Shown: positions 17,697-36,606 of the stretch, piece after piece
Position numbering within the stretch: position 1 is the stretch's first letter
Layout of the letters: the number at the start of each line of letters is the position of its first letter
Virus record (IMG/VR): IMGVR_UViG_3300047320_000091
Direction: 5' to 3' (one strand)
Length of the DNA stretch: 59,488 nucleotides
DNA from: an uncultured virus (IMG/VR IMGVR_UViG_3300047320_000091)
Lineage: Duplodnaviria; Heunggongvirae; Uroviricota; Caudoviricetes
Notes under the pieces: model-generated
What the model was told of the DNA's origin: nothing
Seen by the model: the letters and a program-made list of their open reading frames with translations, nothing else
Database searches by the model: none
Translations under genes and position numbers: made by a program

Positions 17697-18036
17697 GCAT
17701 CTGATCGACATCGACCGTAAGACGGGCGACTACGTTCAGGGCTGGCCGCGCATCAAGCAGAGCATCGAAACGATCCTCACCACGCGCATTGGCGTTCGCC
17801 TGATGCGCCTCTGGTGGGGTTCGAACTTCATCAACATGCAGGACAAACCGGGCAACGAAGAAACGATCATGAGCGGCATGATGGCAGCGATCTCCGCCAT
17901 CAACACCTATGAGCCCGAGTTCAAGGTCACCCGCGTGTCGATCGATGCGTTCGACTCTTCCGGCGAAATCACCATCACCATTGAGGGTGTCGACCTGATC
18001 GACGCGAGCCTCAAGCGCACAAAAACCACCGTTTAA
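17680..18036 (+). CDS. Baseplate wedge protein W/gp25
   Basis: QSI..ILTT.IG.R.MR..WGS and YEP motifs. Confidence 0.9.
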   Translation: MALATEHLIDIDRKTGDYVQGWPRIKQSIETILTTRIGVRLMRLWWGSNFINMQDKPGNEETIMSGMMAAISAINTYEPEFKVTRVSIDAFDSSGEITITIEGVDLIDASLKRTKTTV

Positions 18037-18048
18037 GGCGAGGGCCCG

Positions 18049-18918: not shown

Positions 18919-18922
18919 CCAA

Positions 18923-20152
18923 ATGGCTCAGCGCCTGATGGACCAAATCCTGGCGCCGAACGCTACGGTCTACGAGCGCACTCTCGCCTCTCAGGTCGAT
19001 CGGCTCCTGTCTCTGGACACCGATCGACTGCGGCGACTCTGGGATCCTTATCGATGTCACATCGACGACCTGCCGTATCTGGCTTGGTCGTTCTCGGTGG
19101 ACTTGTGGGACACGGAATGGCCTGAAGCCAAGAAGCGCAAGGTCGTCGCCGACGCCGTCGCACACCACCGCATCAAGGGTACGAAGGCCGGCATGGCCAC
19201 CTACCTTGATCTGGTCGACTGTAATCTCGAAAACCTGATCGTGCCACCTGCGCGCGGCTATCGCATCCCTGCGATGACCAACGACGAGTTCATGTCGTGG
19301 CTGCTGCATCTGCCGCAGATCCGGCTGTACCCGTACATCATTCGCGATCCTGCCGGCGAGCGTGAGTTTCGGACGAAGGACGTCTACTTCCGGAACATCA
19401 ACTTCCGTGAGCCCAGCAACGGCCCGAACCTCTATGGCCGCAAGGCGTCGATCGTCAATAATGGGGCTGAGACCTTCGTTAAGCTCGAAGCGATGACTGA
19501 GCTTGGCGGCCAGATCATAGAGCGCGTCTCGTTCGCCAACACTTCAGCGCGCGACTATCACAGCACGGGCTTTCGCGGCGAGAAGTTCTATCAGCCGACT
19601 GACGCTGCCAACAACATCGTGACGGTGCGGCTCAGCCAAGCCTCATCCCAGCTGACGTCCGTTACGCCGGGGCTCACACCCCAGGATGTTCGACCGACGC
19701 AGATCGCCGAAGTGCATACCGCCTACGCGGATCAGCACTTCCACGACTACAACGCCTCGTTCCGAGGTAAGAATTTCCGCTGCGAGACGGATGCGGCCCG
19801 CTGGATCTACGATCGAGTGGCACTGCACAACAAGGCTGACCTGCCCGCAGGTTTGGCCGTCAAGTCTTATCGCGGTCATATGCGGTACGGCATTCAGCCC
19901 TTCACGGCTGAAGCGAAAGTCAGCATCCCGCTGAAACGGTCCCCGGCTCAAGGCTTTGGTGGCCGCTTCCGCAATGGCTTCCGCGTCCTGACCGACATGA
20001 AGAAGCTCGACGACGCCTGCGGGGCGATCGTCGCTGCCAAGCCTCTGCGCGACACTGTTCTCGTCGACACGGTCAACCACCGGGTCGTGCGTCTCAAGGA
20101 CAGGCGTCGACTCGGAACGTTCAAGCTCGGCGAAATCAAGAAGGTCGCATAG
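18923..20152 (+). CDS. Tail protein I (P2 gpI-like) with C-terminal extension
   Basis: LWDP..C....LPYLAW.FSVD.WD..W; H..KGT. Confidence 0.88.
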   Translation: MAQRLMDQILAPNATVYERTLASQVDRLLSLDTDRLRRLWDPYRCHIDDLPYLAWSFSVDLWDTEWPEAKKRKVVADAVAHHRIKGTKAGMATYLDLVDCNLENLIVPPARGYRIPAMTNDEFMSWLLHLPQIRLYPYIIRDPAGEREFRTKDVYFRNINFREPSNGPNLYGRKASIVNNGAETFVKLEAMTELGGQIIERVSFANTSARDYHSTGFRGEKFYQPTDAANNIVTVRLSQASSQLTSVTPGLTPQDVRPTQIAEVHTAYADQHFHDYNASFRGKNFRCETDAARWIYDRVALHNKADLPAGLAVKSYRGHMRYGIQPFTAEAKVSIPLKRSPAQGFGGRFRNGFRVLTDMKKLDDACGAIVAAKPLRDTVLVDTVNHRVVRLKDRRRLGTFKLGEIKKVA

Positions 20153-20171: not shown

Positions 20172-20199
20172 AAGCCGCTCCTCACCGGGGCGGCTTTTT
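20172..20199 (+). terminator. Rho-independent terminator
   Basis: AAGCCGCTCC/GGGGCGGCTT stem + T run. Confidence 0.7.
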
Positions 20200-20215
20200 C
20201 ATTTTGGGAACACCA

Positions 20216-22471
20216 GTGGAAAACAAAATCATCTTCCATGCGAACATCGACGATGATCCGACCGACTTCACGCGGTTGCAGGATTTCGCCGAAGCTTCGC
20301 TTGACCACGTCGTGCTCGACGGCATCAGCAACCTCACCAAGTACGTCGGCTTCGGCGTCACGAAGGTCGCGGTGACGCAGATCCAGGTTCAGACCGGACG
20401 TCTCTACTCTGCCGGCAAGGTCTACTCCTCGTCCGACACCGCCTGGAGCAAGGACTTCATCACGCAGCTGCCCGTCGCCGGCAAGCGTATCGCCTCGGTC
20501 GTTACCTGGGGCCAGGAGACGGACACGGACATCCGCCCGCGTCAGTTCCTGATCAACGCTGAGACCCGCCAGGCCGAGCCGCAGGCCGTGCCGCTGGTTC
20601 ATTCCCGCGTCGCCAATCTGAACGTCGTTCTCGGCGCTGAGGCTCCGGACCCGTCCGCCCCGCTGGTGGACGCCGGTTACACGGTCATCGCCAACGTGGT
20701 CCTGACGCCGACCGGCGTCGACTTGATCACGATGAACATCGACAACCAGCTGCCGAGCGTCCAGGCGCACGAGCAGCGGATCGACGACCTCGAACAGTTC
20801 GAGGAGACCGCCGGTCTCCAGATCAAGACGCTGGCCTCCGACATCGCGGCTCTGAAGGCCGCGGGCTCGAAGGGCGACGTCGACCAGGCCACCATGGGCC
20901 GCACGCTGGTCCGTCTGGCAGTGCTCGAGTCCAAGAACGGCGTGGTCTACAACGCGATCGACTCGGACGCGAACTTCTTCCTCGACACCGTCAAGTCGCA
21001 GCTGGATGACCCGCTGTCGCATGTGAAGGTGGAAGAGGGCATCCGCATGCCGCACGCCGCCGAAGGCGCCGCGGCCCTCCAGATCTTCAACCCGCTCGAT
21101 CCGAACGCGACGATCAAGAACGGGATCATGTTCCCCGCCTACACGCGGGAAGCCTGGCTCCAGTCCGGCACCATCAACGGTGAGCTGCAGGTCGCAGCCT
21201 ACTCGGTCCAGTCGTTCGACATGGTCCAGAAGATGATGTCGAAGACCCGCATCCGGTACGGCGACGAGTTCTACGTCTGTACGAACAGCCTGTTCTGGCA
21301 GACCGGCCAGTACAACGGAGCCGGCCTCTTCTTCCGCGACGGTCAGACCTACGAGGTCGAGAACCCGCAGGACACGCCCTACCATGCGTTCATCCGTCTG
21401 CGCCAGATCTGGATCGACAGGTGGGATGAGCCCTACTGGGAGAAGGTAACGACCACGACCACGGTCACCGGCACCCAGATCGCCGAGACCTGGCTCCAAG
21501 GCCAGAACATGTGGCTCGACGCCGTTGGCGTCTGGTTCACCCGTCTCGCGGCCTCCGGCTCGGCCCACTTCGCCATCGTCGAGGTCTCCGATTACGGTCT
21601 GCCGAACCTCAAGGCGTGTATCGCTCAGACCACGGTGCTCCGCGAGAACCTCGTTCTCCAGGGCGAGACCAAGGTCTCGTTCCAGCCGACCTTCCTCCAG
21701 GCCGGCAAGCGGTACGCGATCGTCGTGACCACGGCAGCCGACCACTGGGTCGCTACGGTCCCGGGTCAGCAGTTCACGTCCGGTACGTTCTTCTACGTGC
21801 TCGACGGCGCATACGCTCAGGGCGATGCGTTCAAGGATCTGTGGATGCGACTCTACCGCTGCAAGTTCAACACGGCCCGTGCGGTCATCACGTTGAACCC
21901 GCTGCAGCTGGCTGGCGGTATCTTGGCGATCGATCTGCTCACCGGCACGATCGTCCCGGACGGCACCTCGCTCACGTACGAGATCCAGGTCGGATCGACT
22001 TGGTACAACTTCCTCGACGTGGACAAGTACATGCTGGGCCAGGGCGGCACGATCCCGCCGCTGTTGCCGCTCCGCGCGGTCTTCATGGGCTCGGTCGACT
22101 GCATGCCTTGCATCAACTTGGCTGACAGCTCGGTCTACGTGTCCCGGCCGGACGTCTATGCGCAGCACGTCTCCAAGACGCGCACGCTGCCGGCGGCTTC
22201 CACGTCGATCCGAGTGATCGAGCGCTACGAGTACTTCGATCCGGCTTATCACACCGCGAGCTGCAAGCTGCTCACTGGTGCGACCTTCACGACTCAGGTG
22301 GCTCCGTCCTCGGTGACGACCTGGATCGATCCGGACGATGGCGCGACCGAGAAGACCTACGTCTTCAATCTCGGCGCCGCGATCACGCAGTTCCGCAAGC
22401 TGACCCGTCTCGACACCTCGACCAACCAGCGTGTGTTCCACGTCGGCTGGCAAAAGGACTACGCCGTCTAA
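20216..22471 (+). CDS. Large baseplate/tail-fibre-proximal structural protein
   Basis: ~750 aa, beta-rich, between gpI and the tail fibre. Confidence 0.7.
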   Translation: MENKIIFHANIDDDPTDFTRLQDFAEASLDHVVLDGISNLTKYVGFGVTKVAVTQIQVQTGRLYSAGKVYSSSDTAWSKDFITQLPVAGKRIASVVTWGQETDTDIRPRQFLINAETRQAEPQAVPLVHSRVANLNVVLGAEAPDPSAPLVDAGYTVIANVVLTPTGVDLITMNIDNQLPSVQAHEQRIDDLEQFEETAGLQIKTLASDIAALKAAGSKGDVDQATMGRTLVRLAVLESKNGVVYNAIDSDANFFLDTVKSQLDDPLSHVKVEEGIRMPHAAEGAAALQIFNPLDPNATIKNGIMFPAYTREAWLQSGTINGELQVAAYSVQSFDMVQKMMSKTRIRYGDEFYVCTNSLFWQTGQYNGAGLFFRDGQTYEVENPQDTPYHAFIRLRQIWIDRWDEPYWEKVTTTTTVTGTQIAETWLQGQNMWLDAVGVWFTRLAASGSAHFAIVEVSDYGLPNLKACIAQTTVLRENLVLQGETKVSFQPTFLQAGKRYAIVVTTAADHWVATVPGQQFTSGTFFYVLDGAYAQGDAFKDLWMRLYRCKFNTARAVITLNPLQLAGGILAIDLLTGTIVPDGTSLTYEIQVGSTWYNFLDVDKYMLGQGGTIPPLLPLRAVFMGSVDCMPCINLADSSVYVSRPDVYAQHVSKTRTLPAASTSIRVIERYEYFDPAYHTASCKLLTGATFTTQVAPSSVTTWIDPDDGATEKTYVFNLGAAITQFRKLTRLDTSTNQRVFHVGWQKDYAV

Positions 22472-22492: not shown

Positions 22493-22708
22493 ATGACCGA
22501 CAACACGAACGCGGCCACCCCCGAGGTGGTCGCGGTTGAGCCTGCGCCCGTGCCGGCCGATCCCGTCTATTACGACGTGAAGCTGAACGCCAGGTTCACC
22601 TGGCTCGACTTCAATTACCTGCCCAGGGACCATCACATCGTCGACAAGACCGTCTTCGATGCGATGGAGGCTGCGGGGGTGATCGCTGATGTCAAGCAAC
22701 TTTCCTGA
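22493..22708 (+). CDS. Small tail-associated hypothetical protein
   Basis: ORF with SD inside the tail operon. Confidence 0.6.
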   Translation: MTDNTNAATPEVVAVEPAPVPADPVYYDVKLNARFTWLDFNYLPRDHHIVDKTVFDAMEAAGVIADVKQLS

Positions 22709-24368
22709 GCTTGTATTCAGCGAGGATGAAGACTTCACGGCAGATCGTTTGAACGCGGCGATGCAGGTGCTGGATCAGCGCCTGCGTTCCCTCGAACCGT
22801 TCACGCCGTCCTGGCAGCAGGCGGTCAACGACCTGCGTGACGTCGGCCTCTCTCGTCTGAACGACGCCATCCTGCCGGCGTACAACCGCATCCAGCTGTT
22901 GTCCACGCTCGGCTTCCTCTTCGCTGGCTCGTCCAGCGAGGTCACTCTCACCAACGACATGACTGCGACCTTCGTCATCGACGATGAGACGCAGAAGTCG
23001 TTGTTCACGCCGACTCCATTCCTGGCGCTGACGCGCTCCTCGACGGTCGATGATTTTGCAATCGCTCAGTTGATCTCGTACGAGGCAGCCACCGGCACGC
23101 TGATGGTGCAGGTCAAGTCGATCACCGGCAACCCCGGTCCACACACGGACTGGCAGATCGGCGCTTGTGCGGCGAGCACCATCGCTGCCATGGCCTACTT
23201 CGGCCAGATCGACACGGCTCGTACCCAAGTCAACGCTTCGAAGGTGGCCACCGCTGCCGATCGCGTTCAGACTGGTCTCGACCGAGTCCAGACAGGCGCG
23301 GATCGCAATGCCGCCTCTACCTCGGCTTCTGCTGCCGCGGCTTCGGCTGCGCTCGCCGGCACCTGGGATCCGACCAACTACGCCCTCAAGTCGTATGTGG
23401 ACGGAAAGATCCAAGCTCTGATCGGCACCGCGCCGTCGAGTCTGGATACGTTCCAGGAACTCGCTGCCCAGATGGCGGCGGACGAAAGCGGGTTCACCGC
23501 GCTGTCCACCACGGTCTCTGGAAAGCTGGGTGCTTCGAACAACCTGAGCGACCTGACCGACAAGGCGCAGGCTCGCATCAACCTCGGCGTCACCTTCGCG
23601 AACCCGACCAGCAAGTCGACCATGGTGGTGCAGAACGGCTCTGCCGTCACCTACATGCGATCGGACGCGGCCCCCGCGATCGATGCTGCGATTGCTCCGA
23701 CCTGGACTGGTGCTCACACCTGGACCAGCAACATCGGCGCCAGCTTCATCAACCGCGCGACCTTTGGATTCGTGAACGTCTACGCCACAGACAGTGGATC
23801 GGCGTTCATCACGTTCCATCGGACTGCGTACGCGATGCACATGGGTCTCGACACCGACAACACCTTCAAGTGGGGCGGTTGGTCGGATGGCGCGGCTGTG
23901 CGAATGCAGTGTACGGCGGCTGGTCTGCTTTACAGCAACGGCTACGGCGCAGCCACGACCCCGGTCGCAAACCAGGTTCGAGCCGCTGGCGACATCGTCT
24001 ACGGCGTCTCAGACGTGCGGCTGAAGAAGGACATCGAGATCATCACCAACGCGCTGGAGAAGATCCGGCAGTTGCGTGGCGTCACCTGGGATCAGAGTGA
24101 TCTGGCCAAGGAACTGAAAGCTCCCGAGCAACCGCGTCGCAAGGCCGGTCTGCTGGCGCAGGATCTGCAGAGGGTTCTGCCGGAAGCCGTTGGTCTCGCG
24201 CCGTTCGACACCGACAAGTTCGGCAAGAGCAAGTCGGGCCTCGATCTCCTGAACATCTACTACGAGCAGCTCTCCGGCCTCCTGGTCGAGGCTGTGAAGG
24301 AGTTGGCTGACAGGAGCGATGCACTCGAAGCGCGCCTCGCGGCGATCGAAGCAAAGTTGGGGATCTAA
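22689..24368 (+). CDS. Tail fibre with C-terminal intramolecular chaperone (peptidase S74-like)
   Basis: AP.SLDT..ELA and NNLSDL.DKA.AR.NLG fibre motifs; SDVRLKKDI...GLLAQDLQ.VLPEAV autocleavage domain; terminal coiled coil. Confidence 0.9.
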   Translation: MSSNFPELVFSEDEDFTADRLNAAMQVLDQRLRSLEPFTPSWQQAVNDLRDVGLSRLNDAILPAYNRIQLLSTLGFLFAGSSSEVTLTNDMTATFVIDDETQKSLFTPTPFLALTRSSTVDDFAIAQLISYEAATGTLMVQVKSITGNPGPHTDWQIGACAASTIAAMAYFGQIDTARTQVNASKVATAADRVQTGLDRVQTGADRNAASTSASAAAASAALAGTWDPTNYALKSYVDGKIQALIGTAPSSLDTFQELAAQMAADESGFTALSTTVSGKLGASNNLSDLTDKAQARINLGVTFANPTSKSTMVVQNGSAVTYMRSDAAPAIDAAIAPTWTGAHTWTSNIGASFINRATFGFVNVYATDSGSAFITFHRTAYAMHMGLDTDNTFKWGGWSDGAAVRMQCTAAGLLYSNGYGAATTPVANQVRAAGDIVYGVSDVRLKKDIEIITNALEKIRQLRGVTWDQSDLAKELKAPEQPRRKAGLLAQDLQRVLPEAVGLAPFDTDKFGKSKSGLDLLNIYYEQLSGLLVEAVKELADRSDALEARLAAIEAKLGI

Positions 24369-24371
24369 GAG

Positions 24372-24608
24372 ATGGCCGTTCCTGGATCAGGAGCGGTCGC
24401 CTTTTCGACCGTCAACTCCGTCTTCGGCTACGGCATTGCGATGAGCAGCTACGTCGGCCGAACCTATTATTTCCTGAATGGCGGACCAACGGGCACAGGG
24501 ACATTCCCTGGCTCGAACTTCCCCATGTCCATGTTCTACGGGAAATCGAACCACGACGAATGGAACTGTGCCTGCGCGTGCGACTGCGCGTGTGCGTGCA
24601 GTAAGTGA
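24372..24608 (+). CDS. Small fibre-tip cap-like protein with Cys-rich C-terminus (putative RiPP-like substrate)
   Basis: 78 aa, 3 bp after the fibre stop; N-term MAVPGSGAV...PMSMFYGKS; C-term WNCACACDCACACSK. Confidence 0.8.
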   Translation: MAVPGSGAVAFSTVNSVFGYGIAMSSYVGRTYYFLNGGPTGTGTFPGSNFPMSMFYGKSNHDEWNCACACDCACACSK

Positions 24609-24614
24609 GGATCA

Positions 24615-24935
24615 ATGACCACGCCGCTGAGCACCACCTTCAGCTACAAGATCAACATCTGGAGCAAGGATGGCTGGGCTCAGGTCGAATATCGACACGA
24701 GACGCTCGGCAGCTTGGTCAAGCGCGTCTTCATTCCTCTGAACCATTCTGAAGAGGAGCAGCGTGGCGCAATCGTCATGCAGTTCCCCTGGCAATCCTTC
24801 CACGCCAGGTACCTCGACACTCTGGCGCGGGAGGCCTCACCGGCCCCCGCCGCCTTGGAAGGACAATTCACGCACCGCATCGATCGTCCCATGGAAGATC
24901 CGGTCGGTCTGCCCATGGAAACCCACAAGGTGTGA
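24615..24935 (+). CDS. Hypothetical protein in the modification cassette
   Basis: SD GAGG; co-oriented and tightly packed. Confidence 0.7.
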   Translation: MTTPLSTTFSYKINIWSKDGWAQVEYRHETLGSLVKRVFIPLNHSEEEQRGAIVMQFPWQSFHARYLDTLAREASPAPAALEGQFTHRIDRPMEDPVGLPMETHKV

Positions 24936-25483
24936 CGATGCAGTTCAGGCGCATCCGCTTCGAGAATTTCACGATCACGATCTTCACGGCGCATGCCGGC
25001 GAGGAGAGGGTTTGTCCCCCGTCTGAACTGACCCGCGGCATGACTGCGGCGGACGCGCCGGCTATCGCCCACTTGCTGGAAGGCAAGGACGACGCCAGGC
25101 CGCTCCACACCATCCCCGTCTACACCAAGGGCGGCTTCGAGGCTCTCGGCGGCGACCACGCGCCAGACCCTCGTCCAGCTGGAAGCGGCGCCACGCAGAT
25201 CGTGCGAGGCATCGACAATTACAAGCTCCGCGCCACCGCGCCGGACAGCGAGTATCACTGCATCACCCCGAAGAGTAAGGAGCCGGTCTTCTGGCAGCGC
25301 TCATTCGTTGGCGGCAAAGCCGGCGACACGTTCGAGGTGGAGCCAAACAGTTTCCTCTACATCGCAGAGGGCAAGATCGAGCTGGCTCACCAGACCTTCG
25401 TCGGCCCCACGATGCTGGAGATCACCAATCCGCATACGGCCAAGATCACCGAGCCGGTGATGGGCGCCAAGCTCTGGCGCTGA
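24932..25483 (+). CDS. Hypothetical beta-rich (possibly cupin-like) protein
   Basis: Coupled GTGA overlap; FLYIAEGKIE beta-strand pattern. Confidence 0.65.
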   Translation: MTMQFRRIRFENFTITIFTAHAGEERVCPPSELTRGMTAADAPAIAHLLEGKDDARPLHTIPVYTKGGFEALGGDHAPDPRPAGSGATQIVRGIDNYKLRATAPDSEYHCITPKSKEPVFWQRSFVGGKAGDTFEVEPNSFLYIAEGKIELAHQTFVGPTMLEITNPHTAKITEPVMGAKLWR

Positions 25484-25493
25484 AGGGAGCACC

Positions 25494-26123
25494 ATGCCGA
25501 AGATCCGACATCTAACGCCTGCCGATCTGGACGAGATGCATGCCATCATCGAGAAGCACAGCAGCGGCGTAGGAGCGTGGTGCAACGATCCAAGCGCTCC
25601 GGTGCGATCGGACTTCAGGCGCTTCGCCAAGGACCACATCGACCAGCTGTTCCCCCAGGCGATGGCTCATTACTTCGGCTACTTCGACCACAGCGACCAG
25701 CTCGTCGCATGGGCCGGCTTTTACCGATGGGTCGACAACACCAACATCACCGTCGCCACTTTCATAGAAGACCCGGACGCCAACCTTCCGCGCGGGAGCG
25801 GATGCGTCTGGTCTGACGCGCTCATTGACGTCGTGAACTGGGGCGTCGGTCACTTCTGGTCTGAGGGAGTCGAGTGCTTCTGGTCCCGTGTTTACGCGGG
25901 CAGGGAGGACCGGCATCCGTTCAGCCACCCGAACTGCCTGCTGAACAGCTACCACCCGGAGCGAATGTGCTTCATTCCGGCAGGTCAGGGAGCGCCAATC
26001 GAATACCGAAGGGTCTCGTGGGTCTGTGTGGGAGACGACTCGATGATCTACCGGTTCAAGGACCCGCTGCCGCTGGCAGCCTATCTCGAAAGCGAAAATG
26101 ATCAGACTGGAAATGCTGGGTAA
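25494..26123 (+). CDS. GNAT-like fold protein
   Basis: IRHLTPADLDEM N-terminus and YFGYFD..DQLVAWAGF hairpin typical of GNAT acyltransferases. Confidence 0.55.
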   Translation: MPKIRHLTPADLDEMHAIIEKHSSGVGAWCNDPSAPVRSDFRRFAKDHIDQLFPQAMAHYFGYFDHSDQLVAWAGFYRWVDNTNITVATFIEDPDANLPRGSGCVWSDALIDVVNWGVGHFWSEGVECFWSRVYAGREDRHPFSHPNCLLNSYHPERMCFIPAGQGAPIEYRRVSWVCVGDDSMIYRFKDPLPLAAYLESENDQTGNAG

Positions 26124-27396
26124 GGACGGAGAGGTCGTGCCTCTGTTCTACGATCAGCACACCTCACGCTTGCTCGGCCAGGACGGCTTCCAGGCCGTCG
26201 ACCTCACCAGCAACCCGTTCTACGATCCGACTCCGGGCCAGGCCCGCCCCTTCATCGCCGTGGACTACGATCAGCCCGGCCGCAAGGTCCGGGAGATCAC
26301 CAAGCTGAAGATTCAGCTCGGCCTCGGCTGCAACTATTCGTGCTCCTATTGCCTCCAGGCCCTCCAAGTGCAGATGGCCGCGGCATCGAGCACCCGGGAC
26401 GCCAGCGAGTTCATCGCCAACATCGACAACTGGATCGCCAGCCCGGAAGGGATGCAGAAGGTTGAGCTGTGGGGCGGCGAGCCGCTGCTCTACTGGAAGA
26501 AGATCGAGATCCTCGTGCCGGCGCTGAAGGAGAAGTTCCCGAACGCCCGGTTCTCGATCATCACGAACGGCTCGCTCTTCACCCGCGAGATCATCGATCA
26601 GCTCAAGGCCTGGGACTTCTCGGTCACCATGAGCCATGACGGCCCCGGGCATTCGATCCGCGGCGAGGACCCGTTCGAGGATCCCGCCAAGTTCGCGATG
26701 ATCCAGTACGCGCAGCAGACCTTTCATCCGCGCTTCTCGTTCAACGCGGTGCTGACGCCCAAGAGCCACAACGTCAACGAGGTCATCGACTGGTTTCAGG
26801 ACTATTTCCCGGGCTGCAACGTCGGCTTCGAGGGTGTGGTCCACAGCTATGCGAGCGACCCGTCCTCGATCTTCTCGATCGAGCAGTTGGCCGCCTTCAG
26901 CGACACGCTCTCGCGCCAGCTGGCAGACGGAAGCGCGCTGCGCTCGCCGATGCTGATGCAGAAGCTCCAGCGGGCCGTGAAGTCGATCGTGAACCAGCAC
27001 ACCTCGGAGAACCTGTTCCAGAAGTGCGGCATGGACATGCCGGAGTATCTGGCGGTCGACCTGAAGGGCAACGTCATGACCTGCCAGAACGTGGGCGCCA
27101 ACGGCAACCACAAGATCGGGCACGTCGACGACTTCGACAATATCGCACTCAACACCTCCAAGCACTGGAGCAAGCGCCCAGAGTGCCAGAGCTGCCCCGT
27201 GCTGCAGCTTTGCCAGGGCGCCTGCATGTACCAGGGCGGAGACAACTGGACGCACAGCTGCAACGCGGAGTTCTTCTACAACCTGGCCTTCTTCAGGGCG
27301 GCACTGTTCGTCCTGACGGGCCGGTGGATGGTCGGCTTCAGCGGCGACATTGTGCGTCCGAAACTGAAGAAGGATCGCGATGTCGAAGTTCGCTGA
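26098..27396 (+). CDS. Radical SAM/SPASM-domain enzyme (peptide maturase-like)
   Basis: CNYSCSYC (CX3CX2C), WGGEP, ITNG, SHDG; C-terminal KCG...TC...CQSC.....CQGAC...C SPASM cysteines. Confidence 0.95.
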   Translation: MIRLEMLGKDGEVVPLFYDQHTSRLLGQDGFQAVDLTSNPFYDPTPGQARPFIAVDYDQPGRKVREITKLKIQLGLGCNYSCSYCLQALQVQMAAASSTRDASEFIANIDNWIASPEGMQKVELWGGEPLLYWKKIEILVPALKEKFPNARFSIITNGSLFTREIIDQLKAWDFSVTMSHDGPGHSIRGEDPFEDPAKFAMIQYAQQTFHPRFSFNAVLTPKSHNVNEVIDWFQDYFPGCNVGFEGVVHSYASDPSSIFSIEQLAAFSDTLSRQLADGSALRSPMLMQKLQRAVKSIVNQHTSENLFQKCGMDMPEYLAVDLKGNVMTCQNVGANGNHKIGHVDDFDNIALNTSKHWSKRPECQSCPVLQLCQGACMYQGGDNWTHSCNAEFFYNLAFFRAALFVLTGRWMVGFSGDIVRPKLKKDRDVEVR

Positions 27397-28111
27397 ACTG
27401 GCTCGATCCCTTGACAAAATCCCCCATTTGTGGTTGGAAAAGGCATACGATGCGCAACGTTTGCAAGTCGAACTTGATGCCATCGATCCGGCACTTTTCG
27501 TGCCCTTCCGTTCCAAAAGCCGAAACGCCGACCACATCGCCAAGTTCTGGCGGGGGCTTTCGCTTGTCGCACAGAACGGGTCCATCCATGACGACCTGAC
27601 CGAGGTTCCATACGAAGGCCGCACAGGCTACGTGTGGACGCCGGTCGCCGACAGCAGCCCGTACATCAAGCAGGTCGTGACCGAGCTTGGTGGCGAGGGG
27701 CAGCGCGCCCGGCTCATGTGCGTCAAGGCAGGCGGCAGTCTGACCTGGCACCGCCACGGATCAGAGCTTTCGATGATCATGGGTGCCGGCGGCCGGCGGC
27801 CGAACTGGTACGAGCTGATCGTCCACGTCCCTATCCGCACCAATCTGGACTTCAGCTACGAGGTCATCGACACTCAGGTCTATGAGCTGGCGGACTACTC
27901 GGCCGGTAAGCTGGAGATCCACCGCAAGAACTACCCGCAGGCGCAGGCCTGGGCGTTCAACGGTGCCCACTACCACAACGTCTTCAACCGCTCCGAGACC
28001 GAAGACCGCTACGCCATCATGCTGACGCTCGACATCAGGATGAGGAAGACGTTCGACATCGTGTCGAAGGCGGTCGAGAGCTACGAGGGGCCACTCCTGA
28101 CAGGGCTCTGA
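27380..28111 (+). CDS. Asp/Asn beta-hydroxylase-like Fe(II)/2OG oxygenase
   Basis: RARLM....GG.L.WHRH; HVPIRTN; AW.FN....H.VFN.S..DR..IM. Confidence 0.8.
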   Translation: MSKFAELARSLDKIPHLWLEKAYDAQRLQVELDAIDPALFVPFRSKSRNADHIAKFWRGLSLVAQNGSIHDDLTEVPYEGRTGYVWTPVADSSPYIKQVVTELGGEGQRARLMCVKAGGSLTWHRHGSELSMIMGAGGRRPNWYELIVHVPIRTNLDFSYEVIDTQVYELADYSAGKLEIHRKNYPQAQAWAFNGAHYHNVFNRSETEDRYAIMLTLDIRMRKTFDIVSKAVESYEGPLLTGL

Positions 28112-28113
28112 CC

Positions 28114-28536
28114 ATGCAAACCATTCTCTCCGCGAGCCCTCCTCAGGTGCTCATGGATGACTTTCACGCTGCCACGAACGAAGATTGGGTTCGCGACTGG
28201 CAGCTGATCAACGACGGCGAGACCATCCCCCTCGACCAAAGCTGGAAGCTGTACATGCAGCTCCAGAAGAAATCGACCGGCGACCTCTCTGTAACGTGCT
28301 CCACCGATAACGGTCGCCTCGCGGTCGTCGATCGGCAAGCCGGCAAATTTGGCCTCAGGTTGAAGCAAGCGGACGCCGCCCAGATCCCGCCCGGGTCCTA
28401 TTCGTATGACATCGTCCTCGTTGCTGGCGATGGCATCTACCGCCTGGTCTCAGGCACCATCACCGTCGAGCAGGGGGTCACCAATATCCCCGGCCAGGAG
28501 AAGTGGACCCACTATCCGCTGATCCTTCGACCGTAA
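28114..28536 (+). CDS. BppU-like baseplate/fibre adaptor
   Basis: G.Y.YDI.L......RLV.G.ITV..GVT motif. Confidence 0.65.
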   Translation: MQTILSASPPQVLMDDFHAATNEDWVRDWQLINDGETIPLDQSWKLYMQLQKKSTGDLSVTCSTDNGRLAVVDRQAGKFGLRLKQADAAQIPPGSYSYDIVLVAGDGIYRLVSGTITVEQGVTNIPGQEKWTHYPLILRP

Positions 28537-28558: not shown

Positions 28559-28584
28559 AGCCGCCCCTCCCGGGCGGCTTTTTT
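28559..28584 (+). terminator. Rho-independent terminator closing the fibre/modification operon
   Basis: AGCCGCCC/GGGCGGCT stem + T run. Confidence 0.75.
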
Positions 28585-28599
28585 CGTTTGGGAGAACCC

Positions 28600-30036
28600 A
28601 TGACTGTTCAATACCTCCACGGTCTCGAAACGATCGAACTGGACAGCCCGTCCGGCCCGGTTGAGACCGTCAAGTCCAACGTGATCGGCCTCGTCGGCAC
28701 GGCGCCGGACGCTGACCCCGATCTCTTCCCGCTCAACACTCCGGTGCCGGTCTTCGCCGACGCACTGAAGGCGGGTCAGCTCAAGTCCACCGGTACGCTG
28801 CTCGACGCGGTCGACGCCATCTACAGCCAGAAGTCGGCTGTCATCGTCGTGGTTCGTGTCGCCGAGGGCGAGAGCCAGGAAGAGAGCTGGTCGGCTGCGG
28901 TCGGCTCGCCGTCCGGCAAGACCGGCGTCTGGTCGCTGCTCAAGGCGCGTCCGATGCTCCGCGTCGTTCCGAAGCTGCTCATCGCCCCCGGTCTGACCGG
29001 AGGTCGCCCGACCAACGGCGTCAAGAACCTCGTTCTCGGCAGCCAGGGCACCGGCTACGTGCAGGCCACGACCAACGTCGCGATCTCCGCTCCCGCGACC
29101 GGCGGACGCCAGGCCACGGCAGTTGCCTCCGTCATCGGCGGCAAGGTGAGCGCGCTCATCATCACCGACCCCGGCTACGGCTACGACGCAGTCCCGACCG
29201 TGACCATCACGGGCGCGGGCACGGGCGCTGCGGCCACCGTCACCCTCGGCCACGTCGCCAATCCGGTCGGCGTGTCGTTCGCCTCGATCGTCGATCGCCT
29301 CCGCGCGGTCGCCTTCCTCGACGGCCCCGGCACCTCGTACGAAGACGCGGTCGAGTACCGCGGCGACTACGGCAGCCAGCGCATCTCGATCGTCGACCCC
29401 GGCGTTCTGAGCTGGGACACCGAGAACTCCGTCTACGTGAACAAGCCGGCCTCCGCCTACGCGGCGGGCATCCAGGCGCGCGTCGATGAGGAGAAGGGCT
29501 TCTGGTACTCGTTCTCGAACGAGCTGATCCAGAACATCGGCGGCCCCGCCCGTCCGGTCGACTTCATGCCGAACGACCGCGACTGCGAAGCGAACATGCT
29601 CAACGCCTCCCAGGTGACGACCATCATCCACGATGATGGTTTCCGCTTCTGGGGTGTGCGCGGCACCGGCACCGACCCGCTCTGGGCGCACCTCTCGGTT
29701 CGCCGCACCGCGGACATGGTGTACGAGAGCCTGGAGCGCGCCGAGCGCAGCCGAATGGACAAGCCGTTCAGCTACCAGCTGCTCGCCGACATCCAGGGAG
29801 ACGTCAACTCCTACCTCCGTCTGCTCCGCTCCCGCGGCGCGCTGATCGGCGGCAAGTGTTGGATCGACCCGAACATCAACACCCCGGCGACCTTCTCCGC
29901 GGGTGAGCTGTCGGTCGACTTCGACCTCGAACCCCCGGCGCTCCTGGAGCACCTGCAGTTCCGCGCTCGCCGCAACCCGCAGTACTACGTGGACTTCATC
30001 GAGGAGTTCTCGCGGGCGATCGCGAGCAACGGCTAA
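28600..30036 (+). CDS. Contractile tail sheath protein (P2 FI-like)
   Basis: YLHG.E.IE; VIGLVGTAP.AD...FPLNTPV; GFRFWG.R. Confidence 0.95.
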   Translation: MTVQYLHGLETIELDSPSGPVETVKSNVIGLVGTAPDADPDLFPLNTPVPVFADALKAGQLKSTGTLLDAVDAIYSQKSAVIVVVRVAEGESQEESWSAAVGSPSGKTGVWSLLKARPMLRVVPKLLIAPGLTGGRPTNGVKNLVLGSQGTGYVQATTNVAISAPATGGRQATAVASVIGGKVSALIITDPGYGYDAVPTVTITGAGTGAAATVTLGHVANPVGVSFASIVDRLRAVAFLDGPGTSYEDAVEYRGDYGSQRISIVDPGVLSWDTENSVYVNKPASAYAAGIQARVDEEKGFWYSFSNELIQNIGGPARPVDFMPNDRDCEANMLNASQVTTIIHDDGFRFWGVRGTGTDPLWAHLSVRRTADMVYESLERAERSRMDKPFSYQLLADIQGDVNSYLRLLRSRGALIGGKCWIDPNINTPATFSAGELSVDFDLEPPALLEHLQFRARRNPQYYVDFIEEFSRAIASNG

Positions 30037-30128: not shown

Positions 30129-30653
30129 ATGAGCAACCTTCGCGACTCCAACATTCTGCAAGACTTCACCGTCTGGATCGACGGTGTCGGCAAGATCGGC
30201 GAAGCGCCGAACTTCCAGCCGCCCGAGATCAACATGTCCATCGAAGAGTTCCGCGGTGGCGGCATGGACGGCACGGTCGAAATCCCCTTCGGCATCGAGA
30301 AGATCGAGTTCGATTTCACGCTTCATACGTGGGACGAGCAGATCTGGACGAAGCTCGGCTACGGCCCGGGTTCGCTCGACGTGCCGATCACGTTCCGTGG
30401 CTACCTGCTCTCCCCGGGCGGCGGCGAGAAGGGCGTGATGATCACCACGTTCTGTCTGGTGAAGGCGATCAAGACCTCCAAGGCGGAAGCCGGCAAGAAG
30501 GTCGAGATGACGATCAACGTCGTCGCCAACTACTACCAGCACGTTGTCGAGGGCAACACCGTTGCCGAAATCGACGTGTTCAACAAGGTCACCATGATCG
30601 GTGGCGTTGATAAGAGCGCCAGCGCTCGCCGGATCCTCGGCTTCACCTACTAA
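30129..30653 (+). CDS. Tail tube protein (P2 FII-like)
   Basis: EEFRGGGMDG; YY....G....EID..N...IGGVD. Confidence 0.93.
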   Translation: MSNLRDSNILQDFTVWIDGVGKIGEAPNFQPPEINMSIEEFRGGGMDGTVEIPFGIEKIEFDFTLHTWDEQIWTKLGYGPGSLDVPITFRGYLLSPGGGEKGVMITTFCLVKAIKTSKAEAGKKVEMTINVVANYYQHVVEGNTVAEIDVFNKVTMIGGVDKSASARRILGFTY

Positions 30654-31209: not shown

Positions 31210-34200
31210 ATGTCTGACGAACACTTGAAGGTCATAGCCGAGCTGGAGCTTCGCGCCAGCGGTTCGGCGACCATCGCAGCTCTGCAAGCAAAGATTAAGG
31301 CGCTCAAGGACCAGATCAACAAGTCCTTCGCGCCCAACGCGATCCAGGACAGGATCATCTCCCCCAAGATCATGAAGGATCTTCAGGGGACCGGTAAGGC
31401 CATCAACGGCCTGACCAAGAAATACACCGACATGGCGAAAGAGGCCCGTGAACTGGGCCAGATGAACGCCCGTGTCTGGGACGGCATGCGCCGTGACATC
31501 GAAAAGACCCAGAAGCTGTGGCGAAAGTCCAGCGGCGAAGACAAGCGGCGGTACGCCGACGACCTGAAGGAAAAGGTCAAGTACGCGCAGGCCTATCGCT
31601 CGATCTACAACAGGGAGCATCAGGCCTATCTTCGCTCCGTAGCGGCCAGGGACAAGGCTGAGAGCGCTCTGACGCTCGCCAGATTCCGGCAGCAGGAGAG
31701 GCTGGATCGTCAGGCCCGCGCATCAGCGCTGCGGTCGCGAGCGGCCTTCACCCGTTCTCTGCAGAACGTTGCCGGCTCGGTGCGAAGCGGAGGCTATCAG
31801 GCCGCGCTCGTGGGCGGCGCCCTCGCGTACGGCGGCGGCCGGGCGGTCTCGTCCTCGATCCGGTCGGCAACCGACATGGACCGTGCTGAGGCGAACGCTC
31901 GCATCAACATGGACGAGAAGCAGATCGCGGGCGGCTTCGGCGGCTTGCGGAGCCGCATCCTTCCGAAGGCCGTTCAGCTGGGTCAAGACCCGGCTCGCTA
32001 CATGCAGACCGTCGTCGAAGCTGCCAAGGCCGGCGTTCCGGAAAGCATGGCCGAAGCCACTGGTGAGATGGTCACCATGCTCGCCAAGACGTTTGGCGTC
32101 GAGGTCGATCAGGCCATGGACGGCATGGGCTACGCCATCGCGCAGGAGCACGGTGCAGGGCGACTGAAGGATATGACCGGCGTCCGCCGGCTCGGCAACA
32201 TCGCCGCCTTCCTCTCGGCCAAGACCGCCGCGCGTCCCGATCAGATGTTCTCGTTCCTCCGCACCGGTATGGGTTCTGGTGCGATGCTGGGTATGAACCA
32301 GCAGTCGACTCTGGCCTTCGGCGCGTCGGCCATCCAGGCCGGTGCTCAGGGTCAGCAGGCAGCCCGATTCCTTGGCAGCCTCGGTACCAATCTGGCCGAG
32401 CTGACGATGGAAGCGGACAAGATCACCAAGAAGCATCACCGCTCCAAGGAAGACAACCTCTTCATGGGCCTGCCCGGTCAGCTGGGCTATGGCTCGTATC
32501 AGGACATCGAAGCGCGGATCAAGAAGAACCCGAACACGGCAATCTTCGACCTGATCAAGTCGTTCGGCAAGATCAAGGAGCCGCTCGACCGCAAGAAGGC
32601 GATGTCGCAGATCTTCGGCGAGGACTTCTCGCGCTTCCTGGCGAACATGATCGCGTCGCCTGACATGTTGAAGCGCACGCAGGAGCTGGCAGAGGAAGCC
32701 GCAAACCAGAAGGAAGGCAACGACTTCATCAGCGAGGCTTGGAGCGAATACGCCAAGAGCCTTGAGTTCCTGATGGATCGCATCAGCGCCGTGTGGAAGG
32801 TCGTCAAGACCGAACTCGGCGACACGATGAAGCCGTTCGTGGAGCAGCTCAGCCAGTACGTCACTGACTGGTACAACGCTGTCAAGACTGGCGGACTCAA
32901 GGAGAAGTTCAAGGCCATCCTGGATGGTCTCACCGAGGGCTTCCTCGGCAAGAAGGGCACGTTCCGTGACCTGCTTGAGAACATCTTCGGCAAGCCCGGT
33001 GAGGGCAGCGCAGGAAACACCGACAACTACTTCAAGTTCGCTCGCGGCTTCGCGGCCGGTCTGCGAGAGGTTGCCTCCACGATCGGCGACATCTTCACGA
33101 CCCTGTCGAAGTACTTCGGCGGCGGCTCGGATGCGGAAGCACTCGGAAAGTTCACCGCCAAGATCGTCGCCCTGGTGGCTGCGCTCACGGCACTGTCTCC
33201 GGTTATCTCGGTCTTCTCGACCTTGGTTACCCTCGTGGCAGGCCTGGCTGCGATCCTCGGAGGTCCCGCGACCATGGCTCTCGCAGCCACGGCCATGAAC
33301 GACGTCGGAACGTCTGACACCTCTCGCAAGATGAGGAAGCCGGACGGCACAATGGAAACGACCAGCGAGTGGCGCGCTCGCCAGAGCACAGCCAAGAACA
33401 AGCTGTACCACAAGCAGTCCGGCTCGGGCTTCAACCCCTCAGACGTTCACCCGATGAACTATCTGGGCGAGAAGCTCGACAAGTTCGGCGGAAAGATCGA
33501 ACGGGCCAGCCTCATGAGCACTGACATCAGTGCCATGCGGCGCGGCGGGCTCAGCAACGCCTACGCAGGCGCCGGCTCATCCGGTGGCGGCGGAAGCGCT
33601 GGCGGCGGCATGGGTCGACTCCTCAGTGGAGTCGGCACTCCCGATGCTCTGATCAACGGCGCCACGCCTGGCGGCCTGCTCCCCAACTTCGGCGTTGGTT
33701 CTGGCGGCATCATCAGGCGCGGCGGCAAGGTCGGCATGGGATACAGCAGCCCCGACGTTGGGACCAGCGTTCCGTCTGGCGGGCCTGCCGACATGAGTGT
33801 CGGCGAGGGTCTCAGCGGCAACGCCTTCCTTCAGGCTCGTCGTGGTAAATTCGCGGAGGAGCTGCAGAACGATCCGAACCTTCGCCTGCATCTCGCGGCC
33901 ATGCAAATGACCGAGGGTGCGAGCCGTGGCGGAACGATCGAAAGCCTCATGAACCGCTCGGATATGCAAGGCAAGTCGATGCGATCGATGCTCGGCTACT
34001 CGGCTGATGGCAGGATCAATCCGAAGAGCTTCTACGGTCCCATCCGTCGAGGCGAACTTGGACCTGCGATCGAGCAGCTGAAGCGCGACCCGAAGCTCTT
34101 TGCGAAGTACGACGCCTACACGCAGCGTGCTCTCGCGGGAAGCCATGTCATTGGTGGTTACACCGACCAAGGTCTGCCGACCGATCCCAACGGATCGGCG

Positions 34201-36592: not shown

Positions 36593-36606
36593 CGAAAGAC
36601 CCCACC

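What the first reader, a model, noticed from the sequence alone, without database searches (positions are those of the whole stretch)
24372..28111. RiPP-like tailoring cassette inside the tail-fibre operon: Cys-rich fibre-tip protein + radical SAM/SPASM + 2OG oxygenase + GNAT-like protein
Seen: 3 bp after the tail fibre gene is a 78-aa ORF ending WNCACACDCACACSK (six alternating Cys, codons 24567-24599). It is followed by tightly coupled ORFs: two unknowns, a GNAT-like protein, a CX3CX2C radical SAM enzyme with a SPASM Cys set, and an Asp/Asn beta-hydroxylase-like oxygenase. A BppU-like structural gene and a terminator (28559) come next, so the enzymes lie inside the virion-structural transcript. 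Established: rSAM/SPASM maturases install thioether cross-links on Cys-rich peptides (sactipeptides, ranthipeptides such as SCIFF), and T-even-type fibres with a self-cleaving C-terminal chaperone are capped by a small gp38 adhesin. Inference: the N-terminal part (MAVPGSGAV...PMSMFYGKS) is a fibre-attachment domain, and the Cys-rich tail is a core peptide that is cross-linked, hydroxylated or acylated and displayed at the fibre tip. This would be a post-translationally built receptor-binding or metal-binding tip rather than a secreted natural product.
Basis: partly seen in the sequence, partly recalled or inferred. Interest (0 to 1): 0.93.

Follow-up and report, generated by a model that had tools for sequence, protein, structure and literature searches.

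The report
Radical-SAM cassette for cysteine-tailed fibre protein
A Bradyrhizobium prophage encodes, right after its tail-fibre gene, a tiny protein ending in alternating cysteines plus an iron-sulfur "radical SAM" enzyme and two tailoring enzymes, and the same cysteine tail and enzyme travel together in most related phages sampled, so these viruses probably modify the tips of their host-binding fibres chemically.

Summary
A 78-aa ORF (24372-24608) begins 3 bp after an S74-type tail-fibre gene and ends in six alternating Cys. Tightly coupled ORFs follow: two unknowns, a GNAT-fold protein, a radical SAM/SPASM enzyme, a 2OG-oxygenase-fold protein of the Asp/Asn-hydroxylase family, a small fibre-assembly-like gene and a terminator-like hairpin. 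"BppU-like" was not supported.

The key result is co-occurrence. Of 121 diverged rSAM loci with at least 3 kb of upstream flank, 94 carry a same-strand (Cys-X)n tract of four or more Cys; 10 carry one on the opposite strand. The tract nearly always forms the C-terminus, or sits directly before a self-cleaving Hint or S74 domain, often on fibre-like proteins. X is mostly Asn, Ala or Asp.

The best reading is that the rSAM modifies the Cys tail of a fibre-associated protein, probably with thioether cross-links. Hydroxylation and acylation would be clade-specific extras. The chemistry and the virion location are inferred, not shown.

About 11 cellular homologues sit in YcaO RiPP clusters without such tails.

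This scan has noted the same system before on other DNA (for example e1-5916281). None of my seven literature searches found a paper describing it.

The parts
20172..20196 (+). terminator-like hairpin closing the baseplate genes; upstream boundary of the fibre module
   Evidence: 10-pair stem, 7 GC pairs, T-rich tail
20204..22471 (+). 755-aa tail or baseplate-associated protein, first gene of the fibre module
   Evidence: phrog_17470, 5e-171 (function unknown); conserved upstream of the fibre gene in related loci.
22493..22708 (+). 71-aa ORF, unknown function
   Evidence: conserved in 8 related loci
22689..24368 (+). tail fibre with a C-terminal S74 self-cleaving intramolecular chaperone (residues 441-501; SD-RLK motif at 441)
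   Evidence: PF13884, 56 bits against cutoff 22; tail-fibre PHROGs, 1e-26; alignment.
24372..24608 (+). 78-aa Cys-tailed protein, the presumed substrate. It has a conserved N-terminal module and a C-terminal (Cys-X)6 tract at 24567-24599, followed by Ser-Lys and the stop codon.
   Evidence: the tract is an 18-nt unit repeated 1.9 times; distant relatives, e.g. L136 at E 1.9e-6.
24615..24935 (+). 106-aa protein, unknown function, restricted to the Bradyrhizobium clade
   Evidence: no family hit; 11 loci only.
24932..25483 (+). 183-aa protein, unknown function (weak cupin lead only), clade-restricted
   Evidence: Atlas score 0.91 to a cluster in which 22% of members carry Cupin_7; no profile or Pfam relation.
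25494..26123 (+). 209-aa GNAT-fold protein, a putative acyltransferase, clade-restricted
   Evidence: AF2 pLDDT 91.3. RimI 5isv 8.9e-8, SpeG and others; viral GNATs. No Pfam or PDB sequence hit.
26098..27396 (+). 432-aa radical SAM/SPASM enzyme, the conserved core enzyme
   Evidence: (phrog_1802, 7e-58)
27380..28111 (+). 243-aa 2OG/Fe(II)-oxygenase-fold protein of the Asp/Asn beta-hydroxylase family (PF05118), clade-restricted
   Evidence: 21 of 24 members hit PF05118; fold; invariant H124, H126, H149, H199, R210.
28114..28536 (+). 140-aa protein resembling tail-fibre assembly proteins; not BppU by any test run
   Evidence: phrog_1084, 7e-13; phrog_3304, 4.6e-8; no Pfam hit.
28559..28579 (+). 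terminator-like hairpin ending the fibre module, just before the tail sheath gene (28588-30036)

Best explanation
The 78-aa protein is a small fibre-associated protein, and the adjacent radical SAM/SPASM enzyme modifies its C-terminal (Cys-X)n tail after translation.

The most likely chemistry is thioether (ranthionine or sactionine-type) cross-linking. Cys sulfur would be joined to a carbon of the interleaved Asn, Asp or Ala residues, either within one tail or between the tails of a trimer. This would give a reduction-proof, protease-resistant C-terminal knot.

In this Bradyrhizobium clade three further steps are added. A PF05118-type 2OG oxygenase probably hydroxylates Asp or Asn. A GNAT-fold enzyme possibly acylates an amine, such as the invariant terminal Lys or the N-terminus. 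Two proteins of unknown function complete the set.

The whole set is transcribed with the tail-fibre genes, and the product ends up on or at the distal end of the fibre.

Shown here: the anatomy, the enzyme families and folds, and the conserved pairing of Cys tail and rSAM across phages.

Inferred: the substrate relation, the type of bond, the targets of the oxygenase and the GNAT, and the virion location of this small protein.
For: (1) Co-occurrence. 119 of 169 loci holding an rSAM relative carry a same-strand strictly alternating tract of four or more Cys; 11 of 169 carry one on the opposite strand. Among loci with rSAM below 60% identity and at least 3 kb of upstream flank the counts are 94 of 121 against 10 of 121. 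Dereplicated at 60% rSAM identity, the counts are 27 of 36 clusters against 6.

(2) Position. Of 121 tracts, 105 lie upstream of the rSAM at a median of 1006 nt. 96 end within 10 residues of the stop codon.

(3) Self-cleaving domains. The tract is followed directly by a Hint domain in 6 of 6 proteins of that class tested. In L127 it is followed directly by Peptidase_S74 (2.5e-13, starting at the residue after the tract). Self-cleavage would therefore leave the tract as the mature C-terminus.

(4) Carriers. 30 of the 124 ORFs in the fibre-like cluster carry a tract. Examples are JWF gp028 and a collagen-like 545-aa ORF in L120.

(5) Composition. X is Asn 44%, Ala 17% and Asp 13%, and the residue before the first Cys is Asn in 96 of 114 unique contexts. 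[quoted passage not shown]

(6) Enzyme affinities. The best NCBIfam matches are thioether-forming SPASM maturases, with PapB at 3e-23 and CcpM and QhpD next. The PDB profile hits are 8vpo, anSME and CteB.

(7) Cellular relatives. Homologues at 38-41% identity sit in YcaO RiPP clusters next to a small ORF carrying Asp/Asn-Cys.

(8) Oxygenase partners. A PF13759 2OG oxygenase lies just upstream of the rSAM in 97 of 169 loci. This clade has a PF05118 oxygenase instead.

(9) Precedent. Thioether cross-links installed by rSAM on whole proteins are known: CrpC/CrpA and QhpD/QhpC (PMC13692751, abstract and passages).

(10) Same arrangement elsewhere. L136 has an S74 fibre, then an 85-aa Cys-tailed relative (E 1.9e-6), then an rSAM only 35% identical to this one.
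Against: No experiment or mass measurement exists, so the bond type is unknown.

Every curated maturase model scores far below its cutoff: PapB 82.5 against 340, QhpD 67 against 453, anSME 45.9 against 349. Membership of a characterised family therefore fails.

The strict tract is missing from 27 of the 121 diverged loci that have at least 3 kb of upstream flank. Some of these have shorter tails: RSP15 ends NCQCGN and L060 ends PCACGQGK. L152 has CxxC-type repeats. About 11 loci are cellular YcaO clusters with no (CX)n tail.

The window's own tail has only one Asp, plus the preceding Asn, so Ala would have to serve as acceptor.

No RRE was detected or tested. The N-terminal extension before the rSAM core is only about 57 residues, by the alignment bounds.

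The oxygenase, the GNAT, p106 and p183 occur only in 11-16 Bradyrhizobium-clade loci. Their link to the tail rests on adjacency alone.

Nothing places the 78-aa protein in virions.
Confidence: 0.6

Rival explanations
1. The pairing is the same but the chemistry differs. The rSAM oxidises Cys to formylglycine as anSME does, or makes another modification such as C-C cross-links, epimerisation or methylation, rather than thioethers.
For: anSME (4k36/4k37) scores as well as CteB in the PDB profile search, 1e-16 against 1.7e-16, and the top hit 8vpo comes from a cyclopropyl-synthase study (search listing only). Like anSME, the enzyme has a short N-terminus, and anSME acts on whole proteins (recalled). 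JWF's annotators called their homologue an 'anaerobic sulfatase-maturating enzyme'.
Against: anSME TIGR03942 scores 45.9 against a cutoff of 349. The tails lack the C/S-x-P/A-x-R sulfatase motif (the motif is recalled). The strong Asn/Asp/Ala bias at X, with strict Cys alternation, fits a donor-acceptor pattern better than serial Cys oxidation.
Confidence: 0.13
2. The Cys tract is mainly a metal or iron-sulfur binding tail at a trimeric fibre end, comparable to the His-x-His iron sites of the T4 gp37 needle. The rSAM would then be a chaperone or act elsewhere.
For: Alternating Cys in a beta-strand would place all the thiols on one face, and three chains would give stacked tri-Cys layers (inference). 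CrpA may bind metals according to its authors (PMC13692751, discussion passage). The T4 gp37 parallel is recalled.
Against: A metal site needs no dedicated rSAM/SPASM enzyme, yet the enzyme co-occurs in 27 of 36 dereplicated lineages. The X positions are selected for Asn, Asp and Ala rather than being free. Oxygenase partners recur.
Confidence: 0.1
3. The cassette is a moron-type RiPP cluster. The 78-aa protein would be a precursor whose modified tail is released as a peptide (bacteriocin, signal or lysis/defence factor), not a virion part.
For: Cellular homologues of the rSAM lie in genuine YcaO RiPP clusters with small precursors. A cyanophage paper read a phage rSAM maturase as an 'antibiotic synthesis gene' (PMC12801897, passages). 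No virion data exist for this protein.
Against: No protease or exporter gene lies in the module. The genes sit between the fibre and sheath genes inside one terminator-bracketed unit. In other phages the same tract is part of large fibre-like proteins or directly precedes Hint or S74 self-cleavage sites. The N-terminal 60 residues are more conserved than a typical leader and are shared with about 300-aa proteins.
Confidence: 0.1
4. The enzymes modify the fibre itself or another protein or small molecule, and the Cys-tailed protein is only a neighbour, for example an assembly factor.
For: Adjacency alone does not prove a substrate relation. p140 resembles fibre assembly proteins.
Against: Only the Cys tract tracks the rSAM across lineages. 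The fibre types, accessory genes and morphotypes all change.
Confidence: 0.05

Closest known systems
NxxcB/NxxcA (streptococcal radical SAM RiPP; PMC9389541, passages read)
   Same: It is an rSAM/SPASM-type enzyme that links Cys sulfur to the beta-carbon of Asn, and it tolerates Ala, Gln and Asp as acceptor. The phage tract N-C-X-C formally contains N-x-x-C, and its X residues are mostly Asn, Ala and Asp.
   Different: NxxcA is a short leader-dependent peptide with one motif and a secreted product. Here there are 4 to 27 contiguous Cys-X units at the very C-terminus of phage fibre-associated proteins. Sequence relatedness to NxxcB was not tested because no NxxcB sequence was at hand.
PapB/PapA (freyrasin ranthipeptide; NF047865; PMC12373016, abstract read)
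   Same: It is the best NCBIfam match (3e-23). PapB makes multiple thioethers in one Cys-rich tract, targets the carbon next to a carboxylate, and can use the C-terminal carboxylate. The phage tract is C-terminal in 96 of 121 cases.
   Different: The score of 82.5 is far below the cutoff of 340. PapA has Cys-x3-Asp motifs, which strict alternation excludes. PapB uses an RRE and a leader (recalled).
CrpC/CrpA (Methanococcus voltae) and QhpD/QhpC (PMC13692751, abstract and passages read)
   Same: These are SPASM rSAM enzymes that install thioether cross-links on proteins rather than short peptides. QhpD links Cys to Asp beta-carbon and Glu gamma-carbon.
   Different: They are cellular proteins with no virion context. 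The family models miss their cutoffs: TIGR04463 at 47.4 against 525 and TIGR03906 at 67 against 453. QhpD uses an RRE.
Anaerobic sulfatase-maturating enzyme (anSME; PDB 4k36)
   Same: It has a compact rSAM+SPASM architecture without a long N-terminal domain and acts on whole proteins. The PDB profile hit is 1e-16.
   Different: It converts one Cys or Ser in a C/S-x-P/A-x-R motif to formylglycine (recalled). TIGR03942 scores 45.9 against 349. The substrate motif is absent here.
gp38-type adhesins capping T2/S16-like long tail fibres (recalled)
   Same: A small separate protein is encoded directly after a fibre gene whose C-terminal chaperone is cut off. It is proposed to sit on the fibre tip.
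   Different: There is no sequence or family similarity. gp38 is about 250 aa with Gly-rich motifs and no enzymatic maturation. Binding of the 78-aa protein to this fibre is not shown.

Membership tests
Radical SAM superfamily (PF04055) | CX3CX2C cluster motif and a Pfam score above the gathering cutoff | tested here: met
   C78, C82 and C85 are invariant. PF04055 scores 45.5 bits against 29.5.
SPASM domain (TIGR04085) | Seven-Cys motif CX9-15GX4C ... CX2CX5CX3C ... C for two auxiliary clusters | tested here: met
   C310-x13-G-x4-C329, C363/366/372/376 and C388, all invariant in A2. TIGR04085 scores 39.9 against 27.
PapB-family ranthipeptide maturase (NF047865) | Score above the curated cutoff; substrate with Cys-x3-Asp/Glu motifs | tested here: not met
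   82.5 bits against cutoff 340. The substrate has strict Cys-X alternation.
RiPP maturases with an RRE | N-terminal PqqD-like RiPP recognition element | tested here: inconclusive
   Only about 57 residues precede the region aligned to 8vpo (from residue 106) and CteB (from residue 93). No RRE model or fold was run.
Anaerobic sulfatase maturase (TIGR03942) | Score above cutoff; C/S-x-P/A-x-R substrate motif | tested here: not met
   45.9 against 349.45. The motif is absent from the tails.
QhpD (TIGR03906) | Score above cutoff; QhpC-type partner | tested here: not met
   67 against 453. No QhpC-like gene is in the module.
Asp/Asn beta-hydroxylase family (PF05118), 2OG/Fe(II) oxygenase fold | Pfam match; double-stranded beta-helix fold; conserved His...His metal ligands and a basic 2OG-binding residue | tested here: inconclusive
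   The window protein scores 13.9 bits against 22.6. 21 of 24 family members hit at E<=0.01, the best at 4.4e-7. The fold matches proline hydroxylases and human AspH, with TM 0.47-0.58. H124, H126, H199 and R210 are invariant, but their roles are assigned by spacing only.
GNAT acyltransferases | GNAT fold; acyl-CoA-binding R/Q-x-x-G-x-G/A loop | tested here: inconclusive
   The fold is met: pLDDT 91.3, RimI, SpeG and others at E about 1e-7. There is no Pfam or PDB sequence hit. The loop is only partly conserved (R-x-x-G in the close clade) and is not invariant.
Peptidase_S74 intramolecular chaperone fibres | C-terminal S74 domain above cutoff with the Ser-Asp start | tested here: met
   PF13884 scores 56 bits against 22 at residues 441-501. 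S441-D442 are invariant.
gp38-like fibre-tip adhesins | Homology to gp38, or demonstrated binding to the fibre tip | tested here: not met
   The 78-aa protein has no PHROG, Pfam or NCBIfam hit. Binding is untested by experiment.
BppU baseplate/structural proteins | BppU domain match | tested here: not met
   The 140-aa protein has no Pfam hit at E<=0.1, nor at E<=10.

The most novel reading that the evidence does not exclude
Many tailed phages of proteobacteria and other hosts build a non-proteinogenic tip on their host-binding fibres. The tip would be a C-terminal Cys-Asn tract that a dedicated radical SAM enzyme knots with thioethers, possibly between the three chains of the fibre. 2OG oxygenases, and in this clade an acyltransferase, would decorate it further. 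Its length would change through slippage of the short DNA repeat (4 to 27 Cys were seen), which would tune stability or receptor binding. This would be RiPP chemistry used as virion construction rather than for secreted natural products.
Probability: 0.4. Interest if true: 0.92.

Novelty: new variant of a known kind. Interest (0 to 1): 0.85.

Why it matters
Enzymatic post-translational cross-linking of a virion host-recognition part has not been described in any paper I could find (searches).

If true, it adds a chemical layer to how phages build and vary receptor-binding fibres. It also gives radical SAM/SPASM enzymology a very large new substrate class.

It would also correct annotations that read these phage genes as 'antibiotic synthesis' or 'sulfatase maturation'.

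The system is directly testable by co-expression and mass spectrometry. It could matter for engineering stable phage fibres or tailocins, and as a source of sequence-tolerant thioether ligases.

Tried and rejected
- Complex prediction. I submitted fibre residues 296-440 in three copies plus the 78-aa protein, both with alignments. The job was lost twice and then returned no answer, with run scores of 0.00, 0.78 and 0.00. It says nothing either way.
- RNA evidence. No RNA holder was listed; 24 DNA runs from rhizosphere metagenomes hold the stretch.
- The window's own assembly is not held, so I could not search for other copies in the genome.
- Sequence searches for p106, p183 and p140 in Pfam at E up to 10 found nothing meaningful.
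- hhalign of p183 against the PF13759 oxygenase cluster and against p243, and of p243 against PF13759, gave probabilities below 1%.
- PDB sequence searches with p243, with p209 and with their profiles gave nothing.
- BLASTP of p243 against RSP15 ORF046 showed no relation.
- A loose screen for three or more Cys in 14 residues was too noisy in GC-rich DNA to use.
- BLAST and HMM searches for the four accessory genes outside the Bradyrhizobium clade found none.
- I considered and rejected chance or simple-repeat origin of the Cys tail. The protein family is conserved and the frame is maintained, although the tract itself is an 18-nt duplication.
- Supplementary files of the papers were not consulted.

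Full report
**What is in the window.** The window is a complete myovirus-type prophage. It holds a terminase (6803-8266), portal (8287-9882), major head protein (12973-13953), baseplate wedge genes (17680-20152), tail sheath (28588-30036), tail tube (30129-30653), tape measure (31210-34578), endolysin (36568-37773) and an integrase (52445-53617, minus strand). Named relatives of its proteins come from Bradyrhizobium.

Terminator-like hairpins lie at 20172-20196 and 28559-28579. Between them sits a single plus-strand module of ten genes:
- a 755-aa tail protein;
- a 71-aa ORF;
- a 559-aa tail fibre with a C-terminal Peptidase_S74 chaperone (56 bits against cutoff 22);
- the 78-aa Cys-tailed ORF;
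- ORFs of 106, 183 and 209 aa;
- the 432-aa radical SAM/SPASM enzyme;
- a 243-aa ORF;
- a 140-aa ORF.

The gaps and overlaps between the eight genes from the fibre to the 140-aa ORF run from -26 to +10 bp.

**The small protein is a real gene.** A search of 5.8 billion proteins found 22 hits. I dropped one, P0022, which shares only the first 25 residues. The other 21 are 65-100% identical to the window's protein. They share an invariant N-terminus (M-A-V-P, then G7, F11-S-T-V-N15 and more), a variable middle, and the block H-D-E-W-N followed by 4 to 6 alternating Cys and a terminal Lys. Some relatives (L008, L013) carry two tandem copies. In this window the tract is an 18-nt unit repeated 1.9 times. 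This is consistent with change in length by duplication or slippage.

**The enzymes.**
- *rSAM.* It has the CX3CX2C motif and a complete seven-Cys SPASM set, all invariant over 22 homologues of 40-78% identity. It matches phrog_1802 (7e-58). Its best curated matches are peptide or protein thioether maturases: PapB 3e-23, nif11-type, CcpM and QhpD. All fall far below their family cutoffs. A family profile hits PDB 8vpo (4e-24), anSME (1e-16) and CteB (1.7e-16). Only about 57 residues precede the aligned core, less than in 8vpo or CteB.
- *243-aa protein.* It is a divergent PF05118 member. 21 of 24 relatives hit at E<=0.01, and 6 of 24 also hit Cupin_2. Its AF2 model (pLDDT 86.2) matches proline hydroxylases and human AspH. 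H124, H126, H149, H199 and R210 are invariant.
- *209-aa protein.* It has no sequence match and only 11 relatives among 1.84 billion representatives. It folds with pLDDT 91.3 into a GNAT fold, with RimI, SpeG and others at about 1e-7.
- *106-aa and 183-aa proteins.* Both stay unknown.

**The decisive evidence comes from other phages.** tblastn against phage records found rSAM homologues of 37-39% identity in Ralstonia phage RSP15 (an ackermannvirus) and Achromobacter phages JWF and 2-1 (JWF's own record gives no family), each just downstream of tail-fibre genes. JWF's fibre gp028 contains N-C-N-C-D-C-N-C-N-C-S-C running straight into a Hint domain. RSP15's side fibre ends N-C-Q-C-G-N.

With a family alignment I then fetched 80 loci from species-representative genomes (out of 194 relatives) and 80 from viral contigs (out of 381). 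That made 169 loci in all. A six-frame scan for strictly alternating tracts of four or more Cys gave these counts:

| Set of loci | Same strand as rSAM | Opposite strand |
|---|---|---|
| All loci | 119 of 169 | 11 of 169 |
| rSAM below 60% identity, at least 3 kb upstream flank | 94 of 121 | 10 of 121 |

After clustering the rSAMs at 60% identity, 27 of 36 eligible clusters had the tract, against 6 with an opposite-strand match.

Of the 121 tracts in diverged loci, 105 lie upstream of the rSAM at a median of 1006 nt. 96 end within 10 residues of the stop codon, and 21 are followed by a domain of 100-220 residues. That following domain is Hint in 6 of 6 proteins of the 'C-F-x-x-x-T' class tested, though only two reach the Pfam cutoff. 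In L127 a 27-Cys (Cys-Lys)n tract ends at residue 159 and Peptidase_S74 begins at residue 160 (2.5e-13).

So whether the tract is followed by a stop codon, a Hint domain or an S74 domain, the mature protein ends in the tract. Many carriers are fibre-like: 30 of the 124 ORFs in the fibre cluster carry a tract, including a collagen-like 545-aa ORF.

The window's arrangement of S74 fibre, then small Cys-tailed protein, then rSAM recurs in L136. There the rSAM is only 35% identical, and the 85-aa protein matches the family HMM at 1.9e-6.

**Clues to the chemistry.** Over 114 unique contexts, and leaving out two giant Cys-Lys arrays, the X positions are Asn 44%, Ala 17% and Asp 13%. The residue before the first Cys is Asn in 96 of 114.
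- NxxcB links Cys to the beta-carbon of Asn and accepts Ala, Gln and Asp (PMC9389541, passages). N-C-X-C formally contains N-x-x-C.
- PapB links Cys to the carbon next to a carboxylate, including the C-terminal one (PMC12373016, abstract). That fits the C-terminal position.
- rSAM-installed thioethers on whole proteins have precedent in QhpD/QhpC and CrpC/CrpA (PMC13692751).

A second recurrent partner is an oxygenase. A PF13759 2OG oxygenase sits just upstream of the rSAM in 97 of 169 loci, with 4 of 5 sampled members hitting the model. The Bradyrhizobium clade instead has the unrelated-in-sequence PF05118 enzyme downstream. Two oxygenase families recruited to the same pair suggests that hydroxylation belongs to the maturation. 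Asn and Asp are the obvious targets, but this is inference.

The GNAT, p106 and p183 occur only in the 11-16 Bradyrhizobium-clade loci. The terminal Lys after the tract was seen in 7 of the 92 unique C-terminal contexts. Every K-terminated tail I read in the listings is from that clade, apart from one C-K ending in L158. An acylated terminal Lys or N-terminus is therefore a guess worth testing.

**Results against the reading.** 50 of 169 loci lack the strict tract.
- 23 of these 50 have less than 3 kb of upstream flank.
- 5 have a shorter C-terminal C-x-C-x-C.
- Some have two-Cys tails (RSP15, L060) or CxxC repeats (L152).
- About 11 are not phage loci at all. These are from Variovorax, Ramlibacter and Polaromonas. 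In them the rSAM homologue (38-41% identity) sits beside a YcaO-nitroreductase fusion and an ATP-grasp-like protein. A conserved 64-72-aa ORF between them carries Ser-(Asp/Asn)-Cys.

It also shows that the family's cellular members are peptide maturases acting near Asp/Asn-Cys.

A class of 13 proteins of about 300 aa has the tract followed by a conserved domain beginning K-I-I-C and ending in hydrophobic stretches. It has no Pfam match in 4 of 4 tested. Whether these are virion parts is open.

No data place the window's 78-aa protein in virions.

**Comparison with what is known, and novelty.** The system works like a ranthipeptide or sactipeptide maturase or QhpD-type pair, but it fails every curated family cutoff. 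It differs in substrate (contiguous Cys-X units at a protein C-terminus) and in biology (phage fibre modules).

Seven literature searches found no description of it (and for 8vpo). One cyanophage paper lists a phage rSAM maturase as an 'antibiotic synthesis gene' (PMC12801897, passages).

This scan has met the same system before on other DNA. One case is a related Bradyrhizobium prophage (e1-5916281). Others are fused Hint and oxygenase-rich variants. Those notes gave me the NxxcB and CrpC papers as leads, and I tested the co-occurrence afresh here.

**Verdict.** It is a new variant of a known kind of system and of high interest.

Noticed in passing
L127:1113-1910 (viral contig locus): A fibre-like ORF carries a 27-Cys (Cys-Lys)n tract that ends exactly where a Peptidase_S74 self-cleaving chaperone domain begins (Pfam 2.5e-13). 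L132 has a similar 25-Cys array, followed by about 100 residues with no Pfam hit.
   Followed up: partly
L029, L031, L037, L039-L041, L049-L052, L061 (genome-contig loci; e.g. L041:5206-7647 and 7726-7941): Cellular homologues of the rSAM in Variovorax, Ramlibacter and Polaromonas sit next to a YcaO-nitroreductase fusion and an ATP-grasp-like gene. A conserved 64-72-aa ORF carrying Ser-(Asp/Asn)-Cys-x-x-Ile-Ser-Pro lies between them. This looks like an undescribed RiPP cluster type.
   Followed up: partly
L109, L115-L117, L123-L125, L129, L135, L140, L154, L156, L169: Thirteen proteins of about 300 aa, mostly downstream of the rSAM, have an N-terminal module distantly like the 78-aa protein. 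They also have several Asn-Cys tracts, then a conserved domain of about 170 aa that starts Lys-Ile-Ile-Cys and ends in hydrophobic, membrane-like stretches. There is no Pfam match.
   Followed up: partly
L008 / L013 5348-5810 and 9283-10769; L007 3010-4505: Some Bradyrhizobium relatives carry two tandem copies of the small Cys-tailed gene and two paralogous PF05118 oxygenase genes.
   Followed up: no
82 of 169 loci, e.g. L001:5281-6096 (RSP15 ORF047): A conserved protein of about 300 aa and unknown function, with an Ig-like-looking C-terminal end, lies between the Cys-tailed gene and the oxygenase or rSAM in many loci. It is absent from this window.
   Followed up: no
window 1769-3088 (+): A second tail-fibre or collagen-like protein gene (phrog_819, 4e-38) lies at the far left of the window, upstream of the terminase and apart from the main fibre module.
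   Followed up: no
window 24565-24599: The Cys tract is an 18-nt tandem duplication (1.9 copies). Relatives have 4-6 Cys, which suggests that length changes by repeat slippage.
   Followed up: partly
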